Translations under genes and position numbers: made by a program
In this document: in pieces, positions 32,785 through 60,749 of the stretch
Position numbering within the stretch: position 1 is the first letter of the stretch
How the letters are laid out: each line of letters starts with the position of its first letter
Notes under the pieces: generated by a model
Databases searched by the model: none
Seen by the model: only the letters and a program-made list of their open reading frames with translations
Told to the model about the DNA's origin: nothing
Origin: an uncultured Hyphomicrobiales bacterium
Lineage (GTDB): Bacteria > Bacteroidota > Ignavibacteria > Kapaibacteriales > UBA2268
Length of the DNA: 61,119 nt
NCBI GenBank assembly: GCA_964577665.1
Contig: CAZOBD010000007.1
Span: forward strand, 1 to 61,119
Direction of reading: 5' to 3'

Positions 32785-32851
32785 TTAGCTTTGATAACAC
32801 AATAAAATGAAAGCGGTAAAAAGCGCAGGCTGCCGCCATTTTGGAATTAGA

Positions 32852-32887
32852 ACAATACTATATTGCATTACAATACTATATTACATT
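32852..32887. repeat. 18-nt tandem direct repeat at the right island boundary
   Basis: acaatactatattgcatt / acaatactatattacatt, with one mismatch. It sits between B8 and the stop of the AI-2E transporter gene. Confidence 0.8.
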
Positions 32888-32897
32888 ATTGACATTT

Positions 32898-33941
32898 TCA
32901 GGGCAGTTTTTTAGGCGGCGATCCCATAATTCGGGCTATTACCTGAAGGGATGGGAAGCGCTCGAAGATTAGTTTTATCATAACAAGCAGAGGAACGGAG
33001 AGCATCATGCCGGGTACTCCCCAGATATACCCCCAAAAAACCAATCCGAAGATAACCGTAAGAGTGTTGAGCTTGAGTCGGTCTCCCATTATCTTGGGCT
33101 CTACCAAATTGCCTATGGTAAACTGTACGCCGGTGAGTACCATTATATACAGCAGGACAATTTTAAATTCATTGAACTGGACAAATGCCATAAGGGCAGG
33201 CAGTGTAGTGGCAAGAAAGGAGCCGATGTTAGGTATATAGTTCATTACGAAAGCAAAGAATCCCCAGAAAAATGGAAACTTTACTCCGAACAGCAGGCTG
33301 ATGAGATACACGGCCGTGCCGGTTACAATATTGATGAGAGTTTTTATGAAAATGTAGGAAACGACTGATTTTTGAATTTTGACGAAATTAGAAACCAAAT
33401 CGGATTCTTCTGCTCCTGCAACGTAATTGAGGTATGTACCGTAGTTTGCCATGCCGGAAAGCAGCAGTACATAATAGATGGCAAACATGATGAAACTGCC
33501 CGTTGCGCTGGAAATGCCGACGAATATTCCTCCGGCGGTACTGGATACCCATTCGGATGTAACCTGCTTTTGCAGTTCGCTGAAAACCCATCCTGAGTCA
33601 AGTTTTAGATTTAGTAATGAGTTTATCCAGGAAAGAAAGTTATTCAGCCGGTACTCCAGACGGGTAAGAAGAAATTCGCCCTCTTCTGCTATGTTGCTGC
33701 CCACCTGAAAGATGATATTGCCTAAGAGTGCGATTACAAAAAGTGAAAATGTAGCAATGATAGGAATTATTATCCATTTCGGTATATGCTTTGAGCTAAG
33801 GAAACCGATAAGCGGCTGGAACATTAGCGCAACAAGCAGTGCAAAAAACAAAGGCAATAGTATGCCGGAGAGTATGTGCAGAAGATGGAATATCAGCACT
33901 AAAAGAAAAATAAGAAGTATGCGCCTGACAAATATGTCCAT
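32898..33941 (-). CDS. AI-2E family transporter (PerM/UPF0118)
   Basis: 347 aa, polytopic. Characteristic C-terminal region (NYIPNIGSFLATTLPALMAF...GNLVEPKIMGDRLKLNTLTVIFGLVFWGYIWGVPGMMLSVPL). Confidence 0.85.
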   Translation of the reverse strand: MDIFVRRILLIFLLVLIFHLLHILSGILLPLFFALLVALMFQPLIGFLSSKHIPKWIIIPIIATFSLFVIALLGNIIFQVGSNIAEEGEFLLTRLEYRLNNFLSWINSLLNLKLDSGWVFSELQKQVTSEWVSSTAGGIFVGISSATGSFIMFAIYYVLLLSGMANYGTYLNYVAGAEESDLVSNFVKIQKSVVSYIFIKTLINIVTGTAVYLISLLFGVKFPFFWGFFAFVMNYIPNIGSFLATTLPALMAFVQFNEFKIVLLYIMVLTGVQFTIGNLVEPKIMGDRLKLNTLTVIFGLVFWGYIWGVPGMMLSVPLLVMIKLIFERFPSLQVIARIMGSPPKKLP

Positions 33942-37969: not shown

Positions 37970-38247
37970 TTGAAAAAATCCACTCATATTATTATTTTCT
38001 AAAAATCATATTTTTTTTTTAATATTATTTTGTATAATTTAGAGTTTATCTAATATAATATTAGTATAATAACTGTTGAAATGAGAAGAGAAAAAACTTA
38101 CAAAATAAGAATCATTTATGAAAAATAAAAATACTAAAAGTTTTTTTGCCGAGAAATATCCGGCAGAAAGTTTTTTTTAGTGTTTGTAAGTAATATTAAT
38201 ATATGAGAAGTAGAAAATTATTAAATATATTTTATGGGAGTTATCAA

Positions 38248-41200
38248 ATGAAATTCTTTCGCCTAATCATTCCTTTCGCAGTAATGTTTTTTGCCTTACA
38301 GCTTTACGCAGTTGATCCGGATTTTACCGGTCAGCAGCCGGAAAGCCAGATAGTGGCGCCTATATGTTCGGCTTCTTTCACATCTAATCCTTCCGGTACC
38401 ATAATAGACAGGTACCAGTGGAGAATGAGCACTGACGGCGGTACTAACTGGACAGAAATAGTTGACGACAATCAATACTATTTCGGGGCAACAACAACCG
38501 CACTCGAATTAAGAACTTTATCTGAAGAAGACGGTTATGAGTTTCAAATGTATGTTGTGGTAGGATCGAGCACTTTTTATTCTTCATCGGCTACTATTAC
38601 ACTTACCCATTTCACCGATACGGAAATGGATTTTACGGGATTGAAGTACAGTGCGCTTGCATGGGCGGATTTCAATAATGATAACTGGCTCGATGCCGTT
38701 GTCTGCGGATATAATGCCAGCGGCACTTATACAAAAATTTACAAAAACATAGCCGTGGGCGGCGGAAATACTTCCCGTACCTTTCAGGAATTATCAGAAG
38801 GGACTACGGGACTGCCCCCAATTTCCAACGGCGACCTGTACGTAAGCGATTTCAACAACGATGAAAATCTTGATATTGTCTTTGTGGGCGCCGCACCCTC
38901 GGGACTGACTTTTACGGTATTTACGGGAAACGCTGATTTTACATTCGACCACTACTGGTCGCACACACTTGGCATGCACTACAGTTCCGTAGCCTGCGGC
39001 GATCTCGACAGAGACGGACTGGCGGATATTGCCGCAAACGGTGAAGATGAAAGCGGCACTTCTTGGTTCACGGCTTTGAAGAACAATTTAAACGGTACCG
39101 GCGAGAGATTTATCGATAAAACTGCCGACTGGGGCTTTACAGTTATTTATCAGCCGCAGGGATTTCCTCCTCTATCTTACGGCCCGGCAAATCTTACAAA
39201 AGGCTCGGTGGACTTAGGTGATTACGATAAGGACGGTGATATTGATGTTTTGGTTACGGGTGTTCCTACCAACACATTTCCTGATACTCAAACTCAATTC
39301 TATCGTACGGTTGTATTTGAGAATGCTGATTTAGGCGATTTTGACCGTTTACACAAGGATCAGGACGGATTAAGAGATTTTGCATTCGGTTCCGGCGTAT
39401 TTTTTGATTATGACGGCGACGGCGACCTTGATGTTCTGCTATCCGGCGCTTTTGAATCTCCGTTCCCCGATCATTACGATACAAAAATTTATGAAAGCAA
39501 CGGTGTGTTTTGGGAAGTACTGAGTGAAAATCTTGAATCTGTTTATTTAAACGGCACGGGTATTTTCGGCGACTTTACCAATAACGGTATTCTTGATTTA
39601 TTCCAAGCAGGTAAAAGATATTCCTACGGTCCTATTGCGAAAGCATGGTTGAACGGAGGACTTAACTCTGGAGCTATCGGGGAGTTTACCGAAGCTTCAG
39701 GCACTTTTACCGGGGTAATGAATGAATCGGCGGCATTCGGCGATTACAACAAGGACGGCAAACTCGACATTTTGCTGGCAGGCGAGACAAGCGCCGGCGT
39801 TGTTACGAAACTATATAAAAATCATGCATGCCTTGGCAGTTATGATCCCGGCACTCCTGCAGGCTTGACCTTCAAGCAGCTCGGTGAAGAGCAGATAACC
39901 ATGATTTGGGAAGATGCTGCCGATAATTTCCCTGCTTATGATTATCTTACGTATAACCTTTATCTTATGTCTCAGACCGGAACGAGTGTAACCGTTTCAC
40001 CACTTTCCGACCGAAGCACAGGCTACAGGAGGGTGCCGCGGCGCGGTAACGCAGGAGCAAATCTTGAATGGACAATTGTAAATATCGGAGAAGGTGAATA
40101 TAACTGGGGAGTTCAGTCCATAGACAACCGCTATGCGGGCTCGCCTTTCCAAAGCTCAACTCTGACAGTCTATCCGCTTCCCGATTATTACTGCGGAGAC
40201 TGCTATATGAGCAACTGTAATCCCTCGAGCGTTACTATCTGCCCTGAAGAGGACTGGACGATGACTTCCACTCCGTGCCATGCCAACGAATGGAAATGGC
40301 AGGTGTTTTTAAACAACCAGTGGGTGGATATTAATAATAATCTTCCAGGCGGCTCACAGTACAGCGGAGAAACAACAACCGCAATACTTTTCCAGGAAAT
40401 AGCAGAGGAAATGCACCAGACTCTCTTCCGTATGGCTGCAAGAAATCATCAGGCTCCGATTTCATGGGTCTATTCCGAACCGGCTTCTATTTTCCTTAAA
40501 GGATTTCCGACTTTCAGCCCGCATCCAAAAAGCGCTACTGTATCGGCAAGAGAAGGCTATACCTTCTGGGGAGATGTTTCGGCTGTTACCGGACAGCCCG
40601 GATGGAACGGAACAATATCCGCATGGAAATGGCAGCTTAAACTGAACGGAGAAACTCAATGGCAGGACATTCAGGAAGGAGCTAATTTCGGAGCGGTCTT
40701 TACCGGAACTACTACCAGTAAATTATCATTAAATCTTGTGGAACAGCACCACCGAACACAATTCAGACTGCTTGTGCAGACTCATATTTGCCCTAAATAT
40801 CCGGGACATCCCAATCACTGGTTTGGTTCAAATCCAGCAACACTTACCATATACGGTAATTTTTACGATATAGGTATGGACCTTGCCGGAGTTTCATACA
40901 GCTCGTCTCTTTGGGCAGATTTTGACAACGACGGCTGGCTCGACATACTCGTTACGGGCAGAAGCGGCAGGGTATGGCAGTATCCTTTCTCAAAAATATA
41001 TCACAATATACCCAGCAGCACCATACCGGGCGCTTCACGAACTTTTTCCGCCGTAAATCTCGGCTCTACCACTCTTGCCGGAGTTGAGTTCGGCCATGCC
41101 AGCGTAGGCGATTACAACAACGACGGTTTGCTTGACATTCTTTTAACCGGTGAGGATACCGACGGAAACAGAATTGCAAAACTTTACAGAAACGACAATA

Positions 41201-44200
41201 AGAGTCCGTTTACGCCGCCAAGCGGCACAATTACATACAGCAGCGGTACTTTTACAGAAGTAAATACCGTTTTTACAGGCATGAAACATAGCTGCTCTGA
41301 CTGGGGAGACTACAACAACGACGGCTGGCAGGATGTTATCATTACAGGCGAAAAAAGCGGCGGTACGAGATATTCCACTATCCTTTATAAGAATAACGGC
41401 GACGGCTCATTTTCGCAGGTAACTACAAATATTGAAAATCTTGCCGGAGGTCAGGTCGATTGGGGAGACGTTGACAACGACGGCGACTTAGACCTTCTTT
41501 TAACCGGTATAAATAACAGCTATCAAAATAAATCATATATTTATCTAAATAATAACGGCTCCTTTACCGACAGCGGCAGCGAACTTGAAGGAGTAAGACA
41601 GGGCGCTGCGCTGTTTGGCGATTATAACGACGACGGTCTGCTCGACGCTTTAATCGGCGGATTTTATGATATAGGGCCTTTGTACTGCACTACGAAACTT
41701 TATCAAAATCAGGGAAGCGGTTCCTTTACGGAAGTTGATGCTGACCTTCCCGCATTCCGTTCGGGAACGGCAGACTGGGGCGATTATGACAACGACGGCG
41801 ATCAGGACCTCCTTATGACAGGATACAGCGCTGTTTCAAATATTTTCTCTATCGTTTTTGCAAATGAAACAAACGGCGGCTCGGCAAGCTTTACCAATAT
41901 TCAGTCCAGTATTGCGCCAATGTTCCACAGCTCATGCCAGTTCGGCGACTATGACAAAGACGGTTTTCTGGATATTCTTCATACCGGCGAGAATCAGGGC
42001 TATTCTTATGCAAGAGTCTGGAGAAACAACGGCCTCGATCCCAACACCAGACCTTACAAACCTGAAAATCTTTCCATCAGACAATATACTGCAAACAGCG
42101 TTCATCTTTACTGGGAAGCTCCCGATCCGTGGGACCAGGGCATAAGCGGAACTGAGACACCGAAAGATGCTTTAACATATAATATTTATGTGGGAACAGA
42201 ACCTCAGTTTATCGACATCATGTCCCCGCATTCAAAAACAACAGCCGATAATGATAATGGATTGAACGGTTTGAGAAGAACCGTCGATTTCGGAAATACT
42301 TCAAACTCTACGGTGTGGGAAATAAAAGACCTTCCCGTCGGGGGAGGATACAAATGGGGCGTTCAGAGTATTGATAATGCTTTTGCGGGTTCCGAGTTTG
42401 CAAACGGAACATTTATTATATATGATCTTCCAGATTATACAAACGCTCACCCTGCTTCGGTAACGGTATGTCCCGAAGAAAGCGTAACTTTCACTTCGGA
42501 ACCTGTTAACTCCAATGAATGGAAATGGCAGATACTCTGGCAGAACACATGGCAGGACGTAACCAGCGTTAACATCGACGGAGTAAGCTACAACGGAGCA
42601 GACGACACAAGACTAATTATCGACTATGCTGTGGAAGAACTGCACAAGATTTCTTACAGGCTCGGCGCAAGAAACCATAATGCACCTTACACTTGGGCAT
42701 TTTCTAATCCTGCCGCTATATACTTTAAATATTATCCCGATTTCACTAAGCATCCTTCAAGCGCCACTATAAGAGCCGAAGAGCATACATTCACGGCACA
42801 GTACGACCTCGACAATTATTCGGGTAAGGCTTTGAACATTCAGCATCAATGGCAGCAGAAAGCTCCCAGCGATACAGAATGGTACGACGTAACGGAATCC
42901 GGATATACAGGAATAAATGATACTCAGCTTGTTCTCGACGATCCGGATTTCAGGCATCTTTATGAGTACAGACTGAAAGTCAGCAGCCCTGTGGTATGTC
43001 CGCAAACTTGGTTTGTTTCTAATGCGGCAACGCTCCATATACTGCCCATATTCAGCGACATTGATCTCGATGGTACCGTTTTTGACGATATGAAGAATGG
43101 TCTTGTAGAATGGGTTGATTTTGACAATGACGGTGATCTTGATTTGTTTTACACAGGCATTTTTACAGGTCAGGCGGGAAAACAAACTAGACTTTACAAG
43201 AATAACAATAATAACTTTACGAAATTTTATGATGGGAACGATCCCATAATAGCCTATAATAAATCAATAGCATGGGGCGATTACGATGGGGATGGTGATA
43301 TAGATCTTATTGAAATTGGAAGCTTCGGAGGGAAAATTCTCGAGATTTATCGTAATGACCCGACTACTTTTACAGGAATACTTTCCGAAGTTGAAGTTGC
43401 ACCGAATTGGACATCTGGTTATACAGACTGGGCAGATTTTGACAATGATGGAGATATCGATGCTTTTGTTACGGGCACTTATGTTGATGGAGACCGTACC
43501 CATATCTATTTCAATTCAAATGGAGCCTTTTCAAGAATTGATGCGGGACAATTAGGTCTGGTTAATTTAGCTCACTCAGCAGCAGATATTGGTGATGTAA
43601 ATAATGACGGTTATCTAGATATTGTTCTTTCTGGAGTAATCCATGGAACACAAAGTAGATTAACTAGAGTATATCTTAATAATGGCAGTGCATCGTTTAC
43701 GTTAAGTCAAGAACTTTTCGGAGTATCTCAGTCTTCAGTTGCACTTGGGGATATCGATAATGACGGAGATTTGGATTTAGCATATTGCGGCACAGATGGC
43801 ACAGATTATTATGTGAAAATTTATGAAAATTTGAGCGGTACTTTTGTCGATAGAACAACAGTCTCCGATTTTACAGGGGTCTATAATGGAAAAGTTGCAC
43901 TGGCAGACTTTGACAACGACGGTGATATTGACTTGTTAGTTACAGGAATGTACAGCGATGGCGGCGTTGACAAGCCTTCAACAAAGCTCTATAGAAATGA
44001 TGGCAATTTCAACTTTAGAGAAATGGGTACTACAGGATTGGATAATCTTTCCAGTTCATTTGCATGGGGAGATTATGACAATGACGGAGCAATAGATGTT
44101 GCCCTTATTGGACTTGATTCAGATGACAATAAACATACTTCGGTTTACAGAAATCTTAATGCTCTGAAAAACACTCCTCCGTCTTCTCCGGCTGATCTTA

Positions 44201-47200
44201 CTTACGATGATGTCGATGTTTGCGAACACGACTACGTAACGCTTCAGTGGAATGCTTCATCAGACAACGAAACACCATCAAACGGACTATCCTATAATAT
44301 ATACATAAGCAGAACTCCTTTTGCAAACGACGTAAAACCCGGCATGGCGGATAACTCTGCCGCAAATACCGGCTTCCGCCGCATAGTCAGGATAGGTAAC
44401 GCGGGTGCAAACACAAGCTATACATTTACTAATCCCGGTTCGGGAGTTTATTACTGGGGCGTACAGGCAATAGATGCAGGCTTTGCAAGTTCATCTTTTA
44501 CAAGCTCTACTTTCTCGCTTTGCCCGAAAGTGGACTTTACCGGTCAGCATCCGTCGGATGTAACGACCTGCCCCGGACTCAGCGTATCTTACTCATCCGA
44601 TCCTCAATTTGCCATTGAGTATATATGGCAGTATAACAAAAATGACGGCTCCGGCTGGCAGGATGTAACAGATGCAGGCACACCTTTCGCCTACACTTTC
44701 CATTCCTACAACAAAACGGTTATAATTAACAATGTTGAGTATTCAGTTGTTGCTCAAACTCGTCTCGAGATAGATCCCGTTACTGTCAGTCTGCACGACT
44801 ACAAATTCCGGCTGAAAGCCGGAAATAAATGCTGTCCTGGTTTAGGGGCAGATTATGTAGAATCGGATCCTGCGACGCTATGGGTCTATCAGCATGCCGC
44901 ATTTACTTCTCATCCGGCGGATTATTTCGCATGTCAGGACGGCAGCGCATCATTTACTGCTGAAGCCGCATCCCCGAATGAAGGTCCATATCAATGGCAG
45001 GTATGTTACTTGAACGATTACTCGGATGTTTTCGACTGGGGCGCCGGCGGCACCGGAAACGGTGAATTAAGAGACCCGGTTTCCATAGCTTATGACGACA
45101 ACGGAAACGTTTACGTAGTGGATGCAGGTAATTCGAGGATACAGAAATTCTCTTCTGACGGTGTTTATGAAAGAAAATGGGGCAGCTACGGCTCCGGCAA
45201 TTATCAATTTAGGAATCCTGTGGGCATAGCTGCAAACTCGAACACGGTATTTGTAGCAGATAAATATAATTTCCGCATACTGGTATATGACCAGAACGGT
45301 GTATTCCTCCGCAAATGGGGACAAAACGGATACAATCCTGAAGACTTCAAGATGATTACAGCCGTTGCCGTGGATGCTAACGGTTATGTCTATGTAACTG
45401 ATGAGCTTTTGGGTGTCGTTAAGAAATTTGACAATCTCGGCAATCATAAAGTAAACTTCGGCTCTGCCAACCTTACATCGCCTCAGGGTGTTGCTGTTGC
45501 TGCAAACGGTGATGTTTTCGTCAGCGACGACGGCAAGGTTAAAAAATTCGTTAAAGTTAATGAAACAACCTATAATTACTCAGATGAATGGACATCATCA
45601 AATCCGAAAGGACTTGATGTGGATATGCACGGCAACGTATTTGTTGTTGATGAAGTAAACGATGAAGTAAAGAAATTTAATAAATATAAAGATAACACAG
45701 CGGATCTTAATTCCGGACAGCTTAACCTGCCTTTGGATGTAGCTGTTACTCAGGACGGAAAGACAGCATTTGTATGCAGCTACGGCGGTGACGAAGTCGT
45801 CAGATATTCAGTTGAATGGCAGGATATCAGCGGCGGCGGCGATTACAGCGGATATACAAATACGATTTTAAATGTCAACAGTAATATCACCTTAAAAGAT
45901 CAGTCGGAATACAGGCTGGCAAATATAATTGACGGATGTCCCGACAATGATTATTCACGCAGCTATTCCAATTCAGCAACATTGACCGTTGCCGAAGAAC
46001 CAGCATTTACAGGTCAGCCGGCAGATGCAACCGCCTGTGAAGGAGACAATGCCTACTTTGCGGTATCTTTGACAAACCAAAATGAAATAAAGTGGGAATT
46101 TTCGACTAATAACGGTTCTAACTGGGCAGACGTAACCGATAATGGAGAATACTCAGGCTCAGAAACAGTAAATCTTACAGTTTCACTTGTTGATTTTGCA
46201 AAAAATAATTTTTATTTCAGAGCAAAGGCAAGGAATCATGGCTGCCCGGCAGACTGGGAGAATTCTTCACCTGCAAGCCTTACCGTAGTTCCCGAGCCGA
46301 CAATAACATTCACAGGACCGGAAACAAATACCTTTATGTGTGAGGATGGCAGCGCAGATTTTGAAATGTCGGTATCTCCTGAACCTTCTCAAACTTACAT
46401 TTACGATTTCAAATGGCAGCGCAAAACAGGCTCCGGTTGGAATGATATAAGCGGATATCCGTTCTCCGGAACTGATACGAGGACACTTTCCATATTGGAC
46501 GGAAACGGAATCGACAGCGCTGATCAATTCAGACTGCTTGTAAGAATTAATGACTGTCCGGCAGGGGACCGGGACGGGTATGAGTCACCGGTAATTACCG
46601 TAAATCATATTTTAAGCCCCGTTTTTGTAAACTGCTATCCTTCTCCTGAAAGTATCTATGCCTGCGAAGAGTACGGCGTATCGTTCTCTTTCAGTGATGC
46701 CGATATTAGCAATGATAATACATATCAATGGCAGTATGCGAAAAATGAGGACTTTACATTAGCATTTACTATTGAAGACGCTCCGGGATACGGTACTCTC
46801 GACAATCCTTCGGGTATTGCATTCGGACCGGGAAATGTGCTTTACGTTGTTGACTCAGGTAAAGACAGAATTATGAAATTTGACGCCGATGGCAGTCATC
46901 TTCTGAAATTCGGAGAAGAAGGCCTACACGACGGGCAGTTCCAGCATCCTTACGGCATAGCCGTCGATCCTGCGGGAAATGTATGGGTAACCGACAAAGT
47001 CCTGCACAGGATTACGAAATTTGATTCCGGCGGCAATTTTCAAACTAATTGGGGTTCTCAGGGACCCGGTATAGATCAGGTAGATAATCCTTCCGGCATA
47101 GCCGCGGATGAAAACGGCAATGTTTACGTAGCCGATACTGACAATGACAGAATAATGGTTACCAACTCATCCGGTAATTATTTAAGAAACTGGGCTGTAA

Positions 47201-50200
47201 CCAAACCGAGAGGCATAAAAGTTTATAATGGATATGTTTATGTAACTCACGGAAACGACGGGTTCAAGAAATTTGATAAAAACGGCAGTGAAATATCAAT
47301 AAGCGACAAAGATTTCGGTTCTAATCTCCGGCTATTTGATTTCGGACCATTCGGATATTTTTATGCTGCCGACAAGGGCGGCGGATCAATTTTGAAACGT
47401 GAATCCGACGGCACTTCCCAGGTTACTGCAACTGCAAATCCTTCGGAACCCGTAGGAGCAGCCGTTAACCACGCAAACAACTACTTATATATAACCGACC
47501 ATACTAATGACAGAGTAGAAGTTTATTCTCCCGACTGGGAAGACATTTCTGATAATTCCGTATTCTCAGGCTCTCAGACAAGAACTCTGGCAATCAGCGA
47601 TCCGACCGGTATGCACGGATGGTATTTCCGCCTGCGTGCAAGCAATACAATGACCGGACATCAGTGTCCCTCCACATGGGTAAGTTCATGTCCTGCAACT
47701 CTTGAAGTACACGAACAGCCTGTATTTGCAACTGCCGCTTATAATCAGACCGTATGCTATCAGTGGGACGGAAGCTCTACATATACAATAAATATGGAAG
47801 TAAACCCGGCAACTACTTATCAGTGGAAATGGTTTGACGGCAGTGTTTGGGAGGATCTCTCATCAGATGATCATTATTCAGGAGTCAACACTCCCGACCT
47901 GAGCATAGCAGCAGATTATAATCTCGGCGGAGATCCTGATCTTGCAAACCAGATGTACAGACTCGAAGTACAAAACAACGGCTGTCCGGATACATGGGCA
48001 AAATCAGGCGTGGTAACTCTGCACTTTGAGGTACTTCCCTATTTTGATCAGCAGCCTGCAGATGTAACAGCCTGCGCCGGCGAAAGCGCCACATTCTTTG
48101 CAAGCGCTACGTTTACAACCGGCGGAGGACTGGAATGGCAGTACCGCGATCTGCTGGATTATTCTACATCGCAGACTTTCGGCGGTTACGGATACGACCA
48201 GGGACAGTTTGAGCATCCCATAGTAATTGCAGTTGATGGTGAGGGATATGTTTACATAACAGATTCCAATCCGAGAAATCACAGAATACAGAAATTTACA
48301 CCCGACGGACAAACCGTTATTGATGAGTTCGGCGAGTTCGGCGTTGGATACGGACAGTTTTACAAACCTTACGGCATAGCCGTAACTCCTGATGGAAATG
48401 AAGTTTACATAACAGACAGAAACAACCACCGCGTACAGGTGTTTGCCCGCTCCAGCGGCACTTACGGCATAGCTAGGCAGTGGGGCGGCTTAGGCAGCGG
48501 CAGCGGACAGTTCAACAAGCCCCGCGGCATCGATGTTTTTGATTATGCGGGACAAAGAAGGGTTATCGTTGCAGACCAAGACAACAACAGAGTACAGGTC
48601 TTTGATGCAAATGGTAATTACATAACCGAATTTAACGGCAGCGGCTCGGCGGGCGGCGAATTTGAAAACCCGACGGGGCTGGCTATCGACGGTATCGGAT
48701 TTGTATATGTGGTTGATCATAAAAAGCATATTGTACAGAAATGGGTTACCTACGACGGCGGCAACACTTTTGAATACTATGACCAAATTGGAACCGGATA
48801 CAGCAGAGCCGACGGACAGTTCAGCTATCCCGAAGATGTTGACCACGACAAATACGATAATATTTATGTTATTGAAAGGGAATCTCCCGACTGGTCGAGA
48901 ATTCAGAAATTTGACCATCTCGGAAATCATGTTAAGAGTTTCGGTTATTACGGAAATGAATTCGGACAGTTCAATCTTCCGAAGGGAATTGGCGTCAGTC
49001 CGGCAAACAACTGGATTTATGTGTCAGACTCTCTGAAAAACAGAGTGCAGATTTTCGGCTACCCCTGGAAGAAACTCGAATCAAGCAGCAGCTTTACCGT
49101 TACAACAGGTATGACATCAGGTACTGTTTACATTCCCGACGTAACAAATATGGACGGTTTCAAATTCAGACTTAAAGCATGGAACGATGCAAACTGCTGT
49201 TTTGATTTCGGCTGCTCCAATCCCTCTTCGACAGTATATTCCGACGAAGCAGAGCTTACTGTTCCCAACGAGCCGGTTTTCTTCAGCTATAATCAGCCCG
49301 TCAGCGTAACGGTATGCGAAACTTATCCGGCAGTATTTACTTCATCGCCGTACTATTCAAACGAATACGTATGGGAAAGACTGATTGGAAACACCTGGAT
49401 GGATATAACGGATACACCGTCATATAGTGGAATAAATTCAAATACATTAACAGTAATTAACACTATTTACAATGGTCTGCACAAAGCAGTTTACCGCATG
49501 GTGGCAAGGAACAGCGGCTGTCCGCGAACAGGGGTACCCTCTGATCCGGTAACTCTTTCAATTATACCCATCCCCATCATACCTGATCCGCCGGATGCTA
49601 CCGTCTGCATAGGTGAGGATTACACTTATTCAATGCCGAATATTGTTTATTCTGATACCTGGCGCTGGCAGGGATTCAGCACAGCCGATAACAGTTGGAC
49701 TGATCTTGAAAACACTACAATGAATAATGTAACGTATTCGGGTGTTTACACTACCCAGCTTATTATACAAAATGCAAACTTGGATATTGATTACTCGCAC
49801 TTCAGGATAAAAGCTAAGCATGAAGGATGTCCGCCATCTTGGCAGTATTCCGAAGCTTCTCGTATGCTGGTACCCGAAGAACCTGACTTCAGCGGGGAAA
49901 GTCCTTCAAACCATACTGCGTGTATTAATTTCACGTATTATCTGAATTCAAATCCCGATAATGCCAATGAATATCTATGGCAGATAAAAGACGGCGGCGT
50001 ATGGACAGATTTATATGCTACCGGTCCCGGCGGAGTGAACTATAACGGATTCCAAACTACGGAATTAACTATTGTCAATCCTGCTCCTCTTGCCGGTGGG
50101 ACCCATGAGTTCAGAATGAAAGCAAGAAATGAAGGATGTCCGCGTACATGGAATATGTCGCATATAAGGACTGTAAAAGTACCTTTAATGCCTGCTGCGG

Positions 50201-53200
50201 ATATGGCAGATGCTACCGTTTGTGAAAATTACGGTATTACACTTGCGCCGGTTTCATGGAGCAATGCTAATGAATTCCAGTGGCAGATAATTACTTCGGA
50301 TGTTTACAATGAGAATAATTTTGAAGATGTTCAAAGCAGCTCTTATGCCGCCAGATTTACAGATTACACAACACCCAATCTCGATTTGAGCATGGCTGAT
50401 TACGACATGAACGGATTCTGGTTCAGATTGACGATGAGAAATGACGGATGTCCTATTTCGTGGTATGAATCTGCTCCTATGCAGCTTACCGTAAGAAAGC
50501 AGCCGGTAATTACAGGTCTTTCGCCAATGTCAACATCGGTTTGTGAAGATGAAGTTTACAATGTAACTGCAACTGTGATTGACGGTAATCTTTTTGAATG
50601 GGAATACTCTGACGACAACGGACAGAATTACTCGCTTGCATCCACACTTACGGCTGTCAGCGGTGCAAGCACCGTTAATCTTTCAGTCGGCTCCGTAACA
50701 ACTTCTATGAACGGCTGGATGTTCAGAATTAAGGCTAAGAATATAAGCTGCCCATCGACCTGGGTAACTTCCGAGGCGGCAACATTATTAATAACTCCCA
50801 AACCGCAGTTTTACAAGCATCCTCAGTCAGTTACAGTTTACTCAGGAAATCATACCTTTACGGCTGCTGCATCGCCGGCTGATACTTACAGGTGGGAAAT
50901 CATGTATCCCGGAGGTACTTGGGCGCCCGTAGTATCGAGTGCAACTTTCAGCGGAGTAAATCAGACCGCGTTGACCATAACGGATATAACCAAAGTCGGT
51001 ACTACGGTTTACAGGCTCGGTGCAAAATATATGGGCTGCAACACTACATGGACTTATTCAAACGAAGCTACTTTGTATGTGCCGAGGCAGTTTGTCTATC
51101 AGGACGATATTGACAATCTCGTACAGCTTTGCGGCTCGGCAGGCGTATGGGGCGATTACGATAACGACGGATGGCTCGACCTGCTTGTAAGCGGCGCTTC
51201 CGACAGCGGCACATTTACCAAGATATATCGCAACAACGGAGATAATTCATTTACAGAAACATTTGACTTAACAGGCGTTTACAATTCCTCGGCGGCGTGG
51301 GGCGACTACGACAACGACGGATATATTGACGTGCTTCTTTCGGGCAATACCGGTTCGGGAGTGATAACCAAGATTTACAGGAACACTTCCGGTACGGGCT
51401 TCACTGACATAAGCGCAGCTCTGACCGGAATTGAAAGCGGTAATGCCGAATGGGGCGACTACGACAATGACGGGGATCTGGATATTGTGCTTACAGGCAA
51501 CAGCGCCAGCGGCACATTTACTGCCGTTTACAGGAATGACGGAGCAGGTGTGTTTACGGATATTAATGTAGGTTTAACTGAATGCAGTAATTCTGACGTA
51601 CAGTGGGGCGACTACGATAACGATGGAAGGCTTGATATTCTTTTAACAGGAGAGTCATCTTCAGGTAAATTTGCAAAAATTTACAGAAACACTGGAGGCT
51701 CTTTCGCGGGTATTCTTGCCGCAGTTACGGAAATTTCCCACAGCGCTTCCGCATGGGGAGATTATGATCAGGACGGCGACCTTGATTTCATAATTACCGG
51801 CGACAACGGCACTAATCTTGTAACCAGACTTTACCGCAACGACGGGGGAGGAAACTTCACCGAAATAAATCCTGGCATTACGGGCTTAAAAGACGGTCAT
51901 ATTGCTTGGGGCGACTACGACAACGACGGCGATTTTGATATTGTAATCCTTGGCCTGGATAATTCGGCTACTAGAAGAATAGAACTCTACAGAAACGACA
52001 ACGGAACATTCAATATAGTACCACAGGCTGTTTCGGGATTAACAACAGATGTAGCCAACGGCGAAGCATCCTTCGGCGACTACGACAACGACGGTGATAT
52101 TGACCTGATTGTAACAGGCTGCGACGATTCAAACGGCAGATTTACCGGTGTTTATAAAAATATCGAAATCAAAGGAAACACTCCGCCATCCGCTCCTGAC
52201 AATCTTAGCGTGAACCTTTCATCCTGTTCGTCTGCTTCATTCACCTGGTCGCAAAGCAGCGACGACAATACTGATTCTGACGGATTGTCATATAATATTG
52301 TAATAAGCAAGCAGCAGGACTGGAGTGATATGATTGTATCGCCGATGGCTTGGGTAACCAGCAATACCTTCGGTTTCAGAAGAGTTGCACGCTTAGGCAA
52401 TACCAACATGAAGAACGGCTGGACTGTGGAAGGACTTGATATAGGTACATATTACTGGTCGGTACAGGCTATTGATAATGCATTCCTCGGTTCGCCTTTT
52501 GCATCGGCACAGGTATTTCATATTTCTTATCAATATGCCGGTACTCATCCCGAAGATGCCACCGTTTGTGAAAATGATTCTCATATTTTCCAGGCAGGAC
52601 CTACTAATGCAAATACTTACAGATGGTATATGTCAACGGACAACGGTATAAGCTGGGCTCAACTCGCAGATGGCGGAACTTACAGCGGCGTTCAGACTGT
52701 AAACCTGACAATAGATCATGCAGTACCTGCTTTAAGCGGTAATCTTTACAGACTTTACACACGCTTTGATAACTGCCCGTCATCATGGAACCGTTCAAAT
52801 CCTGCTGAACTTACAGTTACTCAGATACCCGACTTTACCGGAAATCAGCCTTATCCTGCTAATGCAACTGTCTGTATAGGCGATGAATACAATGTATGGG
52901 CAAATCCGGCAAATGCCGATGAATTCCAGTGGCAGATATGGAATGGCAGCATTTGGGAAGATATGGCAGGAGAAAACAGTAACACATTTACCATTTCAGC
53001 AGTAGATGTTTCTAATGATGATTCAATGTACAGACTGAAAGCTCGAAATATGGGCTGTCCGGATTCATGGATTTTCTCGGAAAGCGCTCATCTTAGAGTG
53101 CCGACTAATCCTGAATTCGGTTCATACAGTACAAGCATAACTGTCTGCGACGAAGATAATGCTTACATCACCGTGGATGTTTCAAATGCAAACGACTTGC

Positions 53201-56200
53201 AGTGGATGATAAAGCAGGGCGCGGGATATGTTAGTCTTACCAATGCCACTTATTACAGCGGAGTTAAAACCAACTCGCTTACTATATTGAATGTCAGTTC
53301 AACATTCTCCGGCAATCAATATAAACTGTATGCACAGAACGACGGATGTCCCGTACCGCCTGCCGAAACAAATGACATAATCCTTTATGTAACTGATTTA
53401 CCGGAGTTTACGGTACAGCCGGCTGATACACGCATCTGCTCGAATGTATCGACTGTTCTTACATCAAAAGCAGAACCGGCAGACCAGTATAAATGGCAGA
53501 AAGGCAACGATCTGTTTTGGGTTGATCTGACAGACAACACAGTTTACAACGGTATAAACAATACGGCGCTTACCATAAACGATCCTACGGATCTTAACGG
53601 ATGGTATTTCAGACTTTCCGCTAAAAACAGCGGTTGTCCGCTGACTTGGAAGCACTCCGACAGAGCATTGCTGACCGTTATCGGCATTCCTGATTTCACA
53701 AACGCTCAGTTACCCAATACCACAATATGTTACGGAGATTCTCATACATTTATTTCAACTCCTGAACCTGCCGATGAATATCAATGGCAGATTTGGAATG
53801 TATCTACTTGGGAAAATCTTGTCTCAGGAGGAGCATATACAGGAGTTGATGACACTAAATTCATTATTAACAATGTTGATTACAGTTACGACGGCAGCAG
53901 ATACAGACTGCTTGCAAGAAATAACGGCTGTCCTCCTACCTGGGAGATGTCTGATCCGTTTGAAATTGTAGTTCCGAGGAATCCAGAATTTTCACCTGGA
54001 AATCAGCCTTTCAGCGCTACGGCATGCCTCGGCGGAGAATGGACATTTACGGCAGCGCCCGACTATACAGATGAGTACCAATGGCAGTTCTACTACTATG
54101 CTTCCGAAACATGGTTTGACCTGCCGAATACAGGTATTTATTCTGGTACTAATACCAGCGCCCTATATATCAGCGATATAGAAGGCGTATTTGTGGGACG
54201 CTACAATCTTTACAGACTTCTTGTTAGACATCAGGGATGCCCCGCTTCATGGATATATTCTAATGAAGTATCTCTCTTTGTGCCTCAAGAGCCTGACTTT
54301 ACCGATGAACATCCTGTGAATGCTACCGCATGTGAAGGAGACCGCTGGACATTTACATCCGATCCTGAAAATGCCAATGTTTTCAAATGGCAGGTAAACG
54401 AAGGCGGCGGATGGATCGATATTACTAACGGAGGATACTACAGCGGGGCTCAAAGCAAGCATCTAATCATAGATCCTCTGCCGGTGGGCACAAGACAGTT
54501 TAGGCTGCTCGCTCAAAACGACGGCTGTCCACAGAGCTGGGCACGTTCCAACCCTGCGGAACTTTTTGTACCTGTTACACCTGTCTTTACAAATCATCCC
54601 CAGAGCAGAACACTATGTGATGCAGCAGGAGTAACATTTACTGCGTCTGCAACAAATGTAAGCCAATACAGATGGCAGCAGTACACTAATGTTCTCGGTG
54701 TTGACAGGTGGGAAAACATAACGGATGTTACAATATACAGCGGTGCCGGTACGAATACTCTTGTTGTAAGCGACCTTTCCGGATTCGACGAAATCACTCT
54801 GTTCAGGCTGACTGCCGTGAATGACGGCTGTCCGGATCCTTATCTGGCGTCGAATGTGGCAACCTTGTATCTGCCTGAAAGACTTACATTTGCAGGAAAC
54901 CATCCTTCTGATGCTACTGTTTGCGAGAGCAATACTCATCAATTTGCATCTCAGCCTGTTAATGCTCTTGATTACCAATGGCAGGTAAACAACGGCGGAG
55001 GATGGATCGATATTACTAACAATGCAGTTTACGACGGAGTTGAAAGTACATTGCTCACAATTAACGATGTCAGCGGACTCAACGGCAATTATTATCGTTT
55101 AAGCGCTCTCGGCGGCGGCTGTCCGACCACATGGACACACTCAAATGCTGCCCGTCTGCGCGTACCGCCGGCTCCCGACTTTACGGGTAACCACCCGCAG
55201 AATCAGATAATCTGCCTTAGCGGAAGTGCTGCATTTGAGTCCAATCCGGCTAATGCTAATCAATTCCTCTGGCAGAAATTCAACAATAACATCTGGGTTG
55301 ACCTAAATGAAGATCCACCCGATAATCCATACACCGGAGTTACAACAACCAGGCTTGTTATCTCAGATGTAAGCGGTCTTAACAATGCAAGATACAGACT
55401 CCGCGCCAAAAATGACGGCTGCCCTGACAACTGGGTAATATCCAATGAAGCTGCTTTGATAATAAGTACGGAACCTGACTTCAGCGGAGTTACATACACT
55501 GATGCTACCGTATGTATCAATGAAACACATACGTTTACGATTGATCCGGCAGATGCCGACGAATATCAATGGGTAAGGATCGACGGAGGCACTCCTGTTG
55601 TGCTATCGGAAGGTTCTGAGTACAGCGGTGTTACAACCGAATCATTGATAGTAACTAAATCAGCATCCGGAAACTACGAATACAAGCTTCGGGCAAGATA
55701 TAACGGATGTCCTTCTACATGGAAGGTTTCCGAAAGTGTGTATCTTGAAGTAACAGCAGATCCTGATTTCAGCGGTGTAACATATACTGATGCAACAGTA
55801 TGTCTCAAAGAAGAACACATATTTACCGTTTCTCCTTCGAATGCCGATAAATATCAGTGGATAAGAATCGATGGAGGCACTCCTGTAGTCTTAAGCAATA
55901 ATGCGGGATACACAGGAGTCAATACTCAATCGCTTACTGTAAACAAATCTTCGGCAGGTGATTTTGAATACAGACTAAGGGCAAAAAATAACAACTGTCC
56001 TTCAAGCTGGGCAGAATCCCTGAGCATGTATCTGATGGTGCTTGCCGATCCTGACTTTACGGGACAACAGCCCGCAGATGCTACGATTTGTGAAAACGGT
56101 ACACACACTTTCAGTTCAAATCCCTCAAATGCAAATGAATACAGATGGGAAATGTGGAACGGCTCTTCATTTGATGCATTGACATCGGGCGAAGGGTTTA

Positions 56201-58762: not shown

Positions 58763-59572
58763 TTAATCAGTTTGATTATTCTGTACAAAGTCAAAAATCA
58801 AAATACGCTCGAAACCCGGCACCTGATAGTTTACCAAGGGGATGGTGAAAGCTTCGTTTTTTGTTTTATAAAAGCCTATGCCCTCTATAAACCAGATATT
58901 AAAGTATCTTGTGAATTTTATCGGCAGAGCGCCGTTTGCAACACCATCGAACTTGAATTCAACAGAATATTTATGTGCCGTATAGTCAATTCCTTTATAG
59001 GTTATCTGCTCTGTACCTTCTTTTAAGCCGTTGATATAAACAGTCGCTTCGATGTAACCCTTAAAGCCCATAATGTCTATGGCGGTGCTGTCAACTCCAA
59101 TCGTATCTATATGCCATGAGTCTTTGCCGGGATCAGCAAGCAGGTACCATTCATCGGGGAACTCGATTGGTATTTCGAAATCTACTTCTTCGAGATTTAT
59201 CCGGAAAATGCTCTGAAAAATGTCGGAATGAGTGTAAATTTTTCCATTTTCGACGTAGTAGTACTCCGTTCTGTTTTTCTCCCAGTTTATTCTTTCCTGG
59301 CTGATAAATCCTTCAAAAATATATGCGGTTTTGCCTAACTTTGTTTCGGTGCCGGTTACTGTAAGAGAATCAAAATACGGTGTTTCGCTGATTCTGCCGT
59401 TCGTGTCCAGCTCGTAAACCTCGCTAATCCAATAGTTTCCTTGAAACATTGGAATATATTCTTTATCACCGTTGGGAGTGGGGTCGGTTGAATTATCATC
59501 ATCACCGCATGAAACTGTTAAAAATAGAGAAATTAGTATCGCAAAAAATAGTGCAGCATTGATCCTTTTCAT
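58763..59572 (-). CDS. hypothetical lipoprotein
   Basis: 269 aa with a signal peptide and lipobox (LFLTVSCGDDDNS). No family recognised. Confidence 0.7.
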   Translation of the reverse strand: MKRINAALFFAILISLFLTVSCGDDDNSTDPTPNGDKEYIPMFQGNYWISEVYELDTNGRISETPYFDSLTVTGTETKLGKTAYIFEGFISQERINWEKNRTEYYYVENGKIYTHSDIFQSIFRINLEEVDFEIPIEFPDEWYLLADPGKDSWHIDTIGVDSTAIDIMGFKGYIEATVYINGLKEGTEQITYKGIDYTAHKYSVEFKFDGVANGALPIKFTRYFNIWFIEGIGFYKTKNEAFTIPLVNYQVPGFERILIFDFVQNNQTD

Positions 59573-60269: not shown

Positions 60270-60749
60270 TCAATAATACATTTTTATGACCGAGCTAACA
60301 ACGCCCCATACATCAAACTTATCTGCATCGTCTATTTTTATGGAAGAATAATTTTCGTTTTCAGGTTCGAGAAATACGCTGCCTTCACGGTAGCGTATTC
60401 TTTTTACGAGAAGCTCATCATTAATTGCGGCTACGACAATTTTTCCGTCTTCGGGAGCAGCGCCGCAGTCAACCAGCAGTATGTCTCCGGTCTCTATTCC
60501 GGCTCCGCTCATGCTGTCTCCGCTGACCCTTATCAGAAAACTTTTTTCTGTTTCTTTCACTAAAAGTTCATTCAGATCAAGTTTTGCTTCGGTATAACCC
60601 GGTTTTTCATTAGTGTCAATTTCATAAAGGGGATTGATAGACAGCACACCTACGCCTTTCCGTCTTTTTAAAAGCCTGGTTTTAGCTTTTTGTCCCGGCG
60701 ACTTGCGTCTGTTTTTCCAGCTAATCATTATTTCGCTAACTTCTGTCAT
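60270..60749 (-). CDS. LexA/UmuD-like S24 family peptidase
   Basis: 159 aa with LDLNELLVKETEKSFLIRVSGDSMSGAGIETGDILLVD...GKIVVAAINDELLVKRIRY (Ser-Lys dyad context). The start codon is uncertain. Confidence 0.8.
   Translation of the reverse strand: MTEVSEIMISWKNRRKSPGQKAKTRLLKRRKGVGVLSINPLYEIDTNEKPGYTEAKLDLNELLVKETEKSFLIRVSGDSMSGAGIETGDILLVDCGAAPEDGKIVVAAINDELLVKRIRYREGSVFLEPENENYSSIKIDDADKFDVWGVVSSVIKMYY

What the first reader, a model, noticed from the sequence alone, without database searches (positions are those of the whole stretch)
44985..49080. Three NHL propellers appear to be inserted inside Ig-like modules (nested domains)
In ordinary modules the YxWQ strand is followed within ~10 residues by the g.W.D(I/L)...YSG..T..L.I strand. 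At three places the motif is split by ~250-300 aa of NHL repeats. The first is ..GPYQWQVCYLNDYSDVFDWGAGGTGNGELRDP[NHL block 1]VVRYSVEWQDISGGGDYSGYTNTILNV.. The second is ..NTYQWQYAKNEDFTLAFTIEDAPGYGTLDNP[NHL block 2]RVEVYSPDWEDISDNSVFSGSQTRTLAI.. The third is ..GLEWQYRDLLDYSTSQTFGGYGYDQGQFEHP[NHL block 3]RVQIFGYPWKKLESSSSFTVTTGMTSGTVYI.. After each insertion the host module finishes normally (..YRL/FRL...CP...L.V). A whole six-bladed propeller grafted into the same loop of an Ig-like domain three times is an uncommon architecture. It would place the propeller face at a defined position on the fibre.
Basis: partly seen in the sequence, partly recalled or inferred. Interest (0 to 1): 0.65.

Follow-up and report, generated by a model that had tools for sequence, protein, structure and literature searches.

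The report
NHL propellers nested inside Ig-like modules
A 6,597-residue surface protein from an uncultured Bacteroidia bacterium (microbial mat) interrupts three of its Ig-like stalk modules, always in the same hairpin, with a complete six-bladed NHL propeller; this resembles the "split domain" design of RTX adhesins but uses a different host module, inserted fold and secretion system.

Summary
The region lies in one ORF (38203-57996, 6,597 aa). It has a signal peptide, about 33 Ig-like modules of ~97 aa, four in-line FG-GAP propeller/FN3-like units, three NHL blocks and a T9SS type A sorting domain.

A profile of 18 intact modules matches complementary halves either side of each NHL block (positions ~3-40 before, ~42-98 after). 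With the NHL removed in silico, the halves score as one full module (63.5, 72.9, 39.3 bits).

AlphaFold2 models of units 1 and 3 are confident (pLDDT 93.3 and 92.2; pTM 0.90 and 0.89). They show 24 propeller strands. Ig strand C leads into the outermost strand of blade 6, and the last propeller strand leads into Ig strand C'.

Foldseek matches the inserts to TRIM71, Thin and Brat NHL domains (target TM 0.82-0.92). No PDB chain covers a whole unit.

The insertion recurs independently in an acidobacterial protein (OFV92099.1), at the same hairpin. Most relatives place NHL in line with intact modules.

The closest known design is the Ig-like "split domain" of RTX adhesins, so this is a new variant of a known kind. 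The ligand-binding role is inferred. I could not inspect model coordinates.

The parts
38203..57996 (+). Giant ORF of 6,597 aa. The likely true start is Met16 at nt 38248, giving 6,582 aa. Predicted T9SS-secreted fibrillar surface protein.
   Evidence: ORF list and translation. The database copy P0241 starts at Met16 and is otherwise identical. Pfam finds FG-GAP_3, NHL and Por_Secre_tail.
38248..38313 (+). Probable Sec signal peptide (MKFFRLIIPFAVMFFALQLYA|VD).
   Evidence: Read directly from the translation. No signal-peptide predictor was run.
44890..45012 (+). Split module 1, N-half (aa 2230-2270): strands A, A', B and C, ending in YQWQV.
   Evidence: HMM 4-49, i-E 6e-6. AF2 strands E7-9, E14-17, E22-25 and E36-; pLDDT 78-94.
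45013..45810 (+). NHL propeller 1 (aa 2271-2536, 266 aa, six blades). Its first strand, DYSDVFDW, supplies the fourth strand of blade 6.
   Evidence: Pfam NHL. AF2 gives 24 strands with pLDDT ~96-98. Foldseek: TRIM71, Thin, TRIM2/3 and Brat, target TM 0.82-0.87.
45811..45993 (+). Split module 1, C-half (aa 2537-2597): strands C', E, F and G (EWQDIS...YSG...ILNV...YRL...GCP...ATLTV).
   Evidence: HMM 42-98, i-E 8.6e-11. The spliced module scores 63.5 bits over HMM 4-97. AF2 strand E304-314 runs from the propeller into C'.
45994..46602 (+). Two intact modules between units 1 and 2 (aa 2598-2696 and 2702-2800).
   Evidence: HMM 1-98 at 108.8 bits and HMM 4-85 at 34.9 bits.
46609..46746 (+). Split module 2, N-half (aa 2803-2848).
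   Evidence: HMM 3-44, i-E 1.4e-4.
46747..47523 (+). NHL propeller 2 (aa 2849-3107, 259 aa). Six blades by sequence; not modelled.
   Evidence: Pfam NHL and SGL. Collinear with NHL1 and NHL3 in alignments. 31% identical to NHL1 and 30% to NHL3.
47524..47712 (+). Split module 2, C-half (aa 3108-3170).
   Evidence: On its own it scores 51.8 bits over HMM 42-97. The spliced module scores 72.9 bits over HMM 3-97.
47716..48027 (+). Intact module between units 2 and 3 (aa 3172-3275).
   Evidence: HMM 2-97, 66.5 bits.
48031..48150 (+). Split module 3, N-half (aa 3277-3316).
   Evidence: HMM 4-39, i-E 3e-4. AF2 pLDDT 88-97.
48151..49059 (+). NHL propeller 3 (aa 3317-3619, 303 aa, six blades with longer loops).
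   Evidence: AF2 gives 24 strands. Foldseek: TRIM71 and Thin NHL, target TM 0.89-0.92, rmsd 1.9-2.7.
49060..49266 (+). Split module 3, C-half (aa 3620-3688). This is the most divergent half.
   Evidence: HMM 43-98, i-E 3e-5. The spliced module scores 39.3 bits over HMM 4-98. AF2 pLDDT 85-94, except one loop block at 64.
57763..57987 (+). C-terminal T9SS type A sorting domain (aa 6521-6595).
   Evidence: PF18962, E 6.8e-10, 39.5 bits against cut-off 27. TIGR04183, 41.4 bits against cut-off 23.

Best explanation
The gene encodes a very long fibrillar cell-surface protein of an uncultured Bacteroidia bacterium. It is exported by Sec and then by the type IX secretion system.

SHOWN (sequence and models):
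- The stalk is a chain of ~97-residue Ig-like modules.
- At three places (aa 2230-2597, 2803-3170, 3277-3688) a module is split at its C-C' hairpin. A complete six-bladed NHL beta-propeller is nested there, and the module is then completed.
- The chain leaves Ig strand C, forms the outermost (fourth) strand of blade 6, builds blades 1-5 and three strands of blade 6, and returns into Ig strand C'.

INFERRED from strand order and pTM (coordinates not seen):
- Entry and exit are neighbouring antiparallel strands of one blade.
- The Ig C-C' hairpin is in effect lengthened into a two-stranded ribbon that carries the propeller.

INFERRED (function):
- The arrangement lets the fibre continue through the host module's ordinary N-to-C path while each propeller is held out sideways as a ligand-binding head.
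- The propeller would lie off the tensile path of the fibre. Its face opposite the junction would be free to bind a ligand that is still unknown, possibly a glycan or a protein.

This is the same logic as the 'split domain plus ligand-binding domain' pairs of RTX adhesins. The same hairpin has been used independently in an acidobacterial protein, which suggests that the site and junction geometry are structurally favoured.
For: Split of the host module:
- Complementary half hits to the module profile at all three sites.
- Spliced halves score as one full module.
- MAFFT places 29 intact modules across the insert with one long gap.
- The conserved Cys pair, one Cys per half, is kept in all three split modules and in 26 of 33 modules overall.

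Models:
- AF2 unit 1: pLDDT 93.3, pTM 0.90, with continuous strands E36-52 and E304-314 bridging Ig and propeller.
- AF2 unit 3: pLDDT 92.2, pTM 0.89.

Identity of the insert:
- Pfam NHL E 9e-62.
- Foldseek target TM 0.82-0.92 to TRIM71, Thin, TRIM2/3, Brat and PknD NHL domains.

Secretion: T9SS type A sorting domain above curated cut-offs.

Junctions: lengths are identical in all three units. D-[YF]-[ST] lies 7 residues after the strand-C Trp, and 4 residues separate the last propeller aromatic from the C' Trp.

Independent recurrence:
- OFV92099.1 (P0284) has one module split at the same hairpin by 311 aa of NHL.
- Its insert is 50% identical to that protein's own in-line C-terminal NHL, against 26-37% to the window's NHLs. 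The two pair in 100% of bootstraps.

[quoted passage not shown] Adhesive domains are often found mid-protein in Bacteroidetes fibrillar adhesins (PMC8286594).

Sequence integrity: the stretch is identical in independent assemblies from three samples.
Against: - Model coordinates and PAE were not available, so the packing of the two halves into one sandwich, and the propeller's orientation, are inferred from pTM, pLDDT and strand order.
- The AF2 alignments contained intact modules spanning both halves, which favours the nested solution.
- Unit 2 was not modelled.
- No ligand, expression or localisation evidence exists. NHL propellers can also be enzymes or sensors, and Pfam gives weaker overlapping hits to SGL, Vgb_lyase and Lactonase.
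- Pfam Ig_3 and I-set hits to the modules are below gathering thresholds.
- No orthologue of the whole protein was found, so conservation of the three units could not be tested.
Confidence: 0.75

Rival explanations
1. The segments either side of each NHL block are separate small domains or linkers, not two halves of one Ig-like fold. The architecture would then simply be tandem.
For: Taken alone, the N-half hits are weak (7-13 bits). Coordinates could not be inspected.
Against: - The halves are exactly complementary in profile coordinates at all three sites, and they sum to a full-length single-domain hit when spliced.
- Each ~40-aa N-half has only strands A-C, and each ~60-aa C-half only C'-G. 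Both Ig sheets need strands from both halves.
- pLDDT in both halves is mostly 76-97 and pTM is 0.89-0.90.
- The Cys pair is split across the halves.
Confidence: 0.03
2. The nested NHL propellers are catalytic (lactonase- or lyase-like) or sensory modules displayed on the fibre, rather than adhesive ligand-binding heads.
For: - Overlapping Pfam hits to SGL (5e-18), Vgb_lyase, Lactonase and Arylesterase.
- Foldseek also hits PAL, strictosidine synthase, paraoxonase and regucalcin at lower rank.
- PknD's NHL domain is a sensor domain.
Against: - The best sequence and fold matches are non-enzymatic NHL domains (TRIM71, Thin, Brat, Pizza designs).
- SGL, Vgb_lyase and Lactonase hits overlap the NHL hits, and Vgb_lyase is below its cut-off.
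- The context is a repetitive T9SS fibre with four further propellers, typical of adhesins.
- Active-site residues were not examined.
Confidence: 0.15
3. On origin: the three units arose by three separate insertions into the same hairpin, not by one insertion followed by duplication of the composite unit.
For: - NHL1-3 are only 28-31% identical to each other, and each is closer (36-42%) to outside NHL proteins.
- They are not monophyletic in a neighbour-joining tree (0.5% bootstrap).
- The spliced host modules do not cluster: 30-35% identity against a family mean of 31%.
- Flanking modules show no supra-unit repeat.
- Independent insertion at this hairpin has demonstrably happened in P0284.
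Against: - Both junctions have identical lengths, and the D-[YF]-[ST] entry motif is shared by all three units.
- The outside NHLs were selected for similarity to NHL1 and are consensus-like, which biases the tree.
- All modules in this protein are near saturation (~31% identity), so lack of clustering carries little weight.
Confidence: 0.35
4. The arrangement is an assembly chimera or a decaying pseudogene.
For: The gene is long and repetitive, and it comes from a metagenome.
Against: - A single 19.8-kb uninterrupted ORF.
- Identical sequence across all six junctions in independent per-sample assemblies from three samples.
- Modules are only ~31% identical at protein level (the closest pair is 64.5%, outside the finding), so repeat-driven misassembly is unlikely.
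Confidence: 0.01

Closest known systems
Ig-like 'split domains' of RTX adhesins that project ligand-binding domains (AhLap of Aeromonas hydrophila, FrhA of Vibrio cholerae, MpIBP of Marinomonas primoryensis). Sources: PMC12077191, PMC10865825, bioRxiv 10.1101/2025.09.30.679566, and Graham et al. 2024, Proteins 92:933, as cited in those papers.
   Same: - A fibrillar surface protein built of tandem Ig-like extender modules.
- Some extenders are interrupted by a complete domain whose N and C termini are adjacent. The host fold then finishes and the fibre continues.
- There are several such units per protein, separated by one or two ordinary extenders.
   Different: - The secretion system is T9SS type A, not T1SS. 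There is no retention module, RTX beta-roll or Ca-binding nonapeptides.
- The host module is an I-set/Ig_3-like family with a YxWQ strand, not BIg.
- The insertion is at the central C-C' hairpin. The preprint describes projection after the first strand or before the last two strands.
- The inserted domain is a ~260-300-aa six-bladed beta-propeller. The domains named in the passages read are CBM, PA14, vWFA, PBD and RTX, and 'propeller' does not occur in two of those texts.
- The units sit in the middle third of the protein, not in a terminal ligand-binding region.
Integrin beta-subunit hybrid domain with the inserted beta-I (vWFA-like) domain (from general knowledge, not tested here).
   Same: An Ig-like beta-sandwich is interrupted by a whole ligand-binding domain, and the two are connected by two adjacent strands.
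   Different: It is a eukaryotic receptor. The insert is an alpha/beta vWFA fold, not a propeller, and there is no homology.
TRIM71/LIN-41 filamin-NHL unit (PDB 6fq3, 6fpt) and other TRIM-NHL propellers (8j72, 6d69, 7qrw, 1q7f).
   Same: The best structural matches to the inserts are six-bladed NHL propellers with target TM 0.82-0.92. An Ig-like (filamin) domain accompanies the NHL.
   Different: In LIN-41 the Ig-like domain is complete and lies in tandem before the NHL. The whole-unit match is poor (query TM 0.62-0.64, rmsd 8-10). These are cytosolic RNA-binding proteins.
Bacterial and archaeal proteins with the same or a similar Ig module plus NHL in line (P0141, P0404, P0427, P0449, P0026 and others), and Bacteroides BT_3476 (PDB 3tc9).
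   Same: They use the same two building blocks, and many are surface or secreted proteins.
   Different: The modules are intact and the propeller follows or precedes them. This is the common arrangement, and the nested one is the exception.
OFV92099.1 (P0284), a hypothetical protein from Acidobacteria bacterium RIFCSPLOWO2_02_FULL_64_15.
   Same: It has the same module family, with one module split at the same C-C' hairpin by a six-bladed NHL and a similar junction register.
   Different: - One unit rather than three.
- A different NHL subtype, derived from that protein's own terminal NHL (50% identity).
- A different phylum.
- It is unannotated and undescribed.

Membership tests
NHL-repeat six-bladed beta-propeller (Pfam PF01436) | Sequence match to the NHL repeat model above the gathering score. 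| tested here: met
   PF01436, E 9.2e-62, 202.6 bits against cut-off 20, for aa 2201-3766.
NHL-repeat six-bladed beta-propeller (Pfam PF01436) | Six four-stranded blades forming a closed propeller. | tested here: met
   DSSP on the AF2 models shows 24 strands per insert, arranged as 1 + 5x4 + 3. Foldseek target TM is 0.82-0.92 to solved NHL domains. Unit 2 is judged by alignment only.
Ig-like (I-set / Ig_3-like) module | Match to curated Ig family models. | tested here: inconclusive
   Ig_3 scores 25.1 bits (cut-off 30) and I-set 22.8 bits (cut-off 23.7), both below threshold. A PDB sequence search hits 'Immunoglobulin-like domain protein' 9ncf at E 2.8e-14. The module family itself is large: 22,418 representatives at E<=1e-3.
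Ig-like (I-set / Ig_3-like) module | Seven-to-eight-strand beta-sandwich assembled from both flanks. | tested here: inconclusive
   Strand order A, A', B, C | C', E, F, G, with pLDDT mostly 76-97 in both flanks and pTM 0.89-0.90.
Split-domain / nested-domain architecture of fibrillar adhesins | The host extender is interrupted by a complete domain and is then completed. | tested here: met
   Complementary half hits and full-length spliced scores at three sites.
Split-domain / nested-domain architecture of fibrillar adhesins | The N and C termini of the projected domain are adjacent. | tested here: met
   The first and last propeller strands belong to the same blade (1+3 closure), and each is continuous with Ig strand C or C'. 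This is indirect because no coordinates were seen.
Split-domain / nested-domain architecture of fibrillar adhesins | The projected domain binds a ligand. | not testable with these tools
   Needs binding assays.
RTX (T1SS) adhesin | N-terminal retention module with a LapG site, a C-terminal RTX nonapeptide beta-roll and a T1SS signal. | tested here: not met
   No HemolysinCabind or RTX hit across the whole protein. The C terminus is a T9SS type A sorting domain. The protein works like an RTX adhesin but is not a member.
T9SS type A cargo protein | C-terminal Por_Secre_tail / TIGR04183 domain above cut-off. | tested here: met
   PF18962 scores 39.5 bits (cut-off 27) and TIGR04183 scores 41.4 bits (cut-off 23), at aa 6521-6595.
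T9SS type A cargo protein | An N-terminal Sec signal peptide, and T9SS machinery in the genome. | not tested
   A signal-like N terminus is visible by eye. No T9SS component genes were looked for beyond the 61-kb contig, and the neighbours scanned are unrelated.

The most novel reading that the evidence does not exclude
The C-C' hairpin of this widespread bacterial Ig-like module family may be a preferred docking site for whole beta-propellers. It has been exploited convergently in distant phyla (Bacteroidia, Acidobacteria, and probably another Ig subfamily in P0215). The result would be an unrecognised class of 'side-arm' adhesin units outside the RTX/T1SS world. In these units a rigid two-stranded ribbon fixes the propeller's orientation and keeps it off the fibre's load path. 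Ligand-dependent force might then be passed into the host sandwich, as in the integrin hybrid/beta-I pair.
Probability: 0.2. Interest if true: 0.7.

Novelty: new variant of a known kind. Interest (0 to 1): 0.45.

Why it matters
- It extends the 'split domain marks a ligand-binding domain' rule from T1SS RTX adhesins to T9SS giant proteins of Bacteroidota, and to a much larger inserted fold. This gives annotators a simple sequence test for likely binding heads in poorly annotated megaproteins: complementary half hits to a stalk-module profile.
- It offers a structural reason for the reported excess of mid-protein adhesive domains in Bacteroidetes fibrillar adhesins (PMC8286594).
- Independent reuse of the same hairpin with the same junction register suggests a naturally validated site for grafting a propeller onto an Ig scaffold, which may interest protein engineers.
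- It does not reveal a new biochemical principle.

Tried and rejected
- Orthologue searches. Pattern scans with unit 1 found no relative in genome contigs and only generic NHL matches in metagenome contigs. The closest genome by a neighbouring ABC-F gene (L005, 75% identity) is not syntenic. Conservation of the three units therefore could not be assessed.
- The search for homologous proteins returned hits only between about 0.55 and 1.75 times the query length. Searches with unit 1 and with aa 2110-3790 could not return giant relatives and gave no split modules.
- A search with the P0284 unit returned only in-line Ig+NHL proteins.
- AF2 alignments. Alignments with many NHL homologues misplaced the intact modules and were discarded (A1, A3, A4, A5). 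A2 and A6 were checked column by column before use. The tool's MAFFT could not be reproduced locally.
- One insertion or three. Spliced-module identities, NHL identities, a neighbour-joining tree with bootstraps, and flanking-module neighbours all gave no resolution.
- Model files are not exposed, so no contact or orientation analysis was possible.
- I considered and rejected the idea that the FG-GAP propellers are also nested. The modules either side of them are complete.

Full report
Where the finding sits.
- The coordinates fall inside one uninterrupted ORF, 38203-57996 on the + strand, of 6,597 codons.
- The copy in public databases (P0241, NCBI, on a 61,119-bp contig, the same length as this window) starts at Met16 and is otherwise identical.
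- Pfam finds many FG-GAP repeats, NHL repeats (E 9e-62) confined to the aa 2201-3766 chunk, and a C-terminal Por_Secre_tail domain. It finds only sub-threshold Ig_3 and I-set hits for the ~97-aa repeat that makes up most of the protein.
- NCBIfam confirms a T9SS type A sorting domain above its cut-off.
- A neighbouring ABC-F gene is 75% identical to one MAG and 50-55% identical to many Bacteroidales.
- The sequence is present in microbial-mat metagenomes.
- The protein is therefore a T9SS cargo megaprotein of an uncultured Bacteroidia bacterium.

Checking the observation.
- I built a 99-position HMM from 18 intact modules and searched the protein with it. [quoted passage not shown]
- At exactly three places the profile matches in two complementary pieces:
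  - aa 2233-2279 (positions 4-49) and 2538-2597 (42-98)
  - aa 2806-2852 (3-44) and about 3108-3170 (42-98)
  - aa 3280-3316 (4-39) and 3622-3688 (43-98)
- When the intervening 266, 259 and 303 residues are removed in silico, each pair scores as a single domain spanning positions 3-98, at 63.5, 72.9 and 39.3 bits.
- MAFFT aligns 29 intact modules to the three units with a single long gap over the NHL block.
- Two Cys columns (profile positions 16 and 83, one in each half) are both occupied in 26 of 33 modules, including all three split ones.
- The stretch 44800-49300 is found without a single difference in independent per-run assemblies from three samples. In two samples it lies on single contigs of 17.4 and 14.3 kb; in the third it lies on two overlapping contigs. 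An assembly chimera is excluded.
- The complete feature spans 44890-49266, a little more than the reported range.

Structure.
- The inputs were alignments checked column by column, containing three units, 29 intact modules and 15 or 2 outside NHL proteins.
- AlphaFold2 gave confident models for unit 1 (aa 2228-2601: mean pLDDT 93.3, pTM 0.90) and unit 3 (aa 3275-3690: pLDDT 92.2, pTM 0.89).
- In both models the insert has 24 strands, read as one strand, then five four-stranded blades, then three strands. The N-terminal strand (DYSDVFDW in unit 1) is therefore read as the fourth strand of blade 6.
- In unit 1, DSSP reports one continuous strand from Ig strand C into that first propeller strand (residues 36-52). 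It reports another from the last propeller strand into Ig strand C' (304-314).
- I therefore read the C-C' hairpin of the Ig module as prolonged into a two-stranded ribbon that merges with blade 6.
- The flanks show the strand order A, A', B, C | C', E, F, G, with pLDDT mostly 76-97.
- In an Ig sandwich each sheet needs strands from both halves (B with E; C with F and C'; A' with G; textbook topology), so the halves cannot be independent domains.
- A pTM near 0.9 for the whole chain fits one rigid body.
- Foldseek against the PDB matches the inserts to TRIM71/LIN-41, Thin, TRIM2/3, Brat, the designed Pizza6 proteins and PknD, with target TM 0.82-0.92. No chain covers the whole unit: the best query TM is 0.64, and the filamin-NHL tandem of LIN-41 aligns at rmsd 8-10.
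- Limits:
  - Model files are not exposed, so I did not see the sheet pairing or the propeller orientation.
  - The alignments contained intact modules spanning both halves, so the models are not independent of the sequence argument.

Relatives with and without the insertion.
- A profile of the intact modules finds 22,418 proteins (E<=1e-3) among 1.84 billion representatives.
- Among the best 150, only one protein other than the window's own shows the split signature: P0284, which is OFV92099.1 from an Acidobacteria MAG.
- P0284 has eleven intact modules, then one module split between 'YQWQV' and 'LWADV' by 311 aa of NHL, then two more modules, and an in-line NHL propeller at its C terminus.
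- Its spliced module scores 44.4 bits over positions 3-97. Its inserted NHL is 50% identical to its own terminal NHL but only 26-37% identical to the window's NHLs, and the two pair in 100% of bootstraps.
- That was therefore a separate insertion event at the same hairpin, with a similar junction register.
- A third protein, P0215, appears to carry two units in which a different Ig subfamily is interrupted by ~530-580 aa of NHL. Spliced versions hit Pfam Ig_2 and I-set across the junction, but only weakly (E 4e-4 to 5e-3).
- Many proteins combine intact modules with NHL in tandem, for example P0141, P0404, P0427, P0440, P0449 and P0026.
- The nested form is therefore rare but recurrent.

History within this protein.
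- NHL1-3 are 28-31% identical to each other and 36-42% identical to outside NHL proteins.
- They do not group in a neighbour-joining tree.
- The spliced host modules are no closer to each other than to any other module.
- Flanking modules show no larger repeat.
- Against that, both junctions have exactly the same length in all three units and share a D-[YF]-[ST] entry motif.
- I regard one insertion followed by duplication as somewhat more likely than three insertions, but the question is unresolved.

How it most likely works.
- Shown: a stalk of Ig-like modules, three of which carry a whole propeller in the C-C' hairpin, and a T9SS type A sorting signal at the C terminus.
- Inferred from what is known of T9SS type A cargo: after secretion the protein is anchored by its C-terminal end, so the N terminus is distal. 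The three NHL units would then lie in the middle third of the fibre, beyond about 21 modules and one FG-GAP unit.
- Inferred from topology:
  - A propeller's two chain ends lie side by side, so placing it in a hairpin lets the fibre run on through the host module's opposite-end termini while the propeller sticks out sideways.
  - Tension along the fibre would pass through the host sandwich and not through the propeller's closure.
  - The face away from the junction would be free for a ligand.
- It also fits the remark that adhesive domains in Bacteroidetes fibrillar adhesins are often mid-protein (PMC8286594).
- The ligand is unknown. A glycan or protein is plausible, and a catalytic or sensory role is not excluded (weaker SGL, lyase and lactonase hits; enzymes at lower Foldseek ranks).

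Comparison and novelty.
- The protein is not an RTX adhesin. It has no RTX repeats or T1SS signal, and it has a T9SS sorting domain instead.
- It differs from the described split domains in the host module family, in the insertion site, and in the inserted fold. The site here is the central hairpin, whereas the preprint describes insertion after the first strand or before the last two. The RTX papers I read list CBM, PA14, vWFA, PBD and RTX domains, and two of them do not contain the word 'propeller'.
- My literature searches found no description of a propeller nested in an Ig-like module of a T9SS protein. Absence from the held library is not proof.
- I rate it a new variant of a known kind. 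It is of moderate interest to adhesin and protein-architecture specialists, useful as an annotation rule, and not a new principle.

Noticed in passing
window 38203-38248: The ORF as listed starts 15 codons upstream of the start used in the public protein record. Met16 (MKFFRLIIPF...) gives a typical signal peptide and is the more likely start.
   Followed up: partly
window 38608-40197, 40852-42417, 43042-44517, 51085-52527: Four FG-GAP/VCBS propeller units, each followed by an FN3-like domain, sit in line between complete Ig-like modules. The same protein therefore uses two different ways of mounting propellers: FG-GAP in line and NHL nested.
   Followed up: partly
window ~20000-33000: A low-GC stretch (GC 0.28-0.33 against ~0.41-0.46 elsewhere) is packed with short minus-strand ORFs. 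It includes three PIN-domain proteins and a bPH_2/zinc-ribbon protein. It looks like an island of toxin-antitoxin-like genes.
   Followed up: partly
window 44530-44886 (aa 2110-2228): The intact module just before unit 1 carries about 20 extra residues after strand C' (TPFAYTFHSYNKTVIINNVEYSVV). This is a small expansion next to the hairpin that hosts the propellers.
   Followed up: no
window 55471-56040 (aa 5757-5946): Two adjacent modules are 64.5% identical, against a family mean of 31%. This is the only sign of a recent module duplication in the protein.
   Followed up: partly
P0215 aa ~930-1600 and ~1686-2302: A 2,440-aa protein with a Bacteroidota-like signal peptide has two places where an Ig-like domain of another subfamily (…WK.NG…) seems interrupted by ~530-580 aa of NHL, possibly two propellers. 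Spliced versions hit Pfam Ig_2 and I-set only weakly.
   Followed up: partly
P0284 (OFV92099.1) aa 1724-2138: An acidobacterial hypothetical protein has the same module family split at the same hairpin by an NHL propeller that is 50% identical to its own C-terminal in-line NHL.
   Followed up: yes
L005 (CAYVTD010000035.1): This MAG contig is labelled 'uncultured Hyphomicrobiales' but carries the closest ABC-F homologue (75%) to this Bacteroidia window. All other good hits are Bacteroidales, so the label may be a binning or labelling error.
   Followed up: no
window 56905-57760 (aa ~6235-6520): Between the last regular module and the sorting domain lie different beta-rich domains, with a weak K319L-like PKD hit and a 'YxW' motif of another type. 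They were not characterised.
   Followed up: no
window 60270-60749 (-): A Peptidase_S24 (LexA/UmuD-like) ORF lies just downstream of the giant gene. The 269-aa ORF at 58763-59572 has no Pfam match.
   Followed up: no
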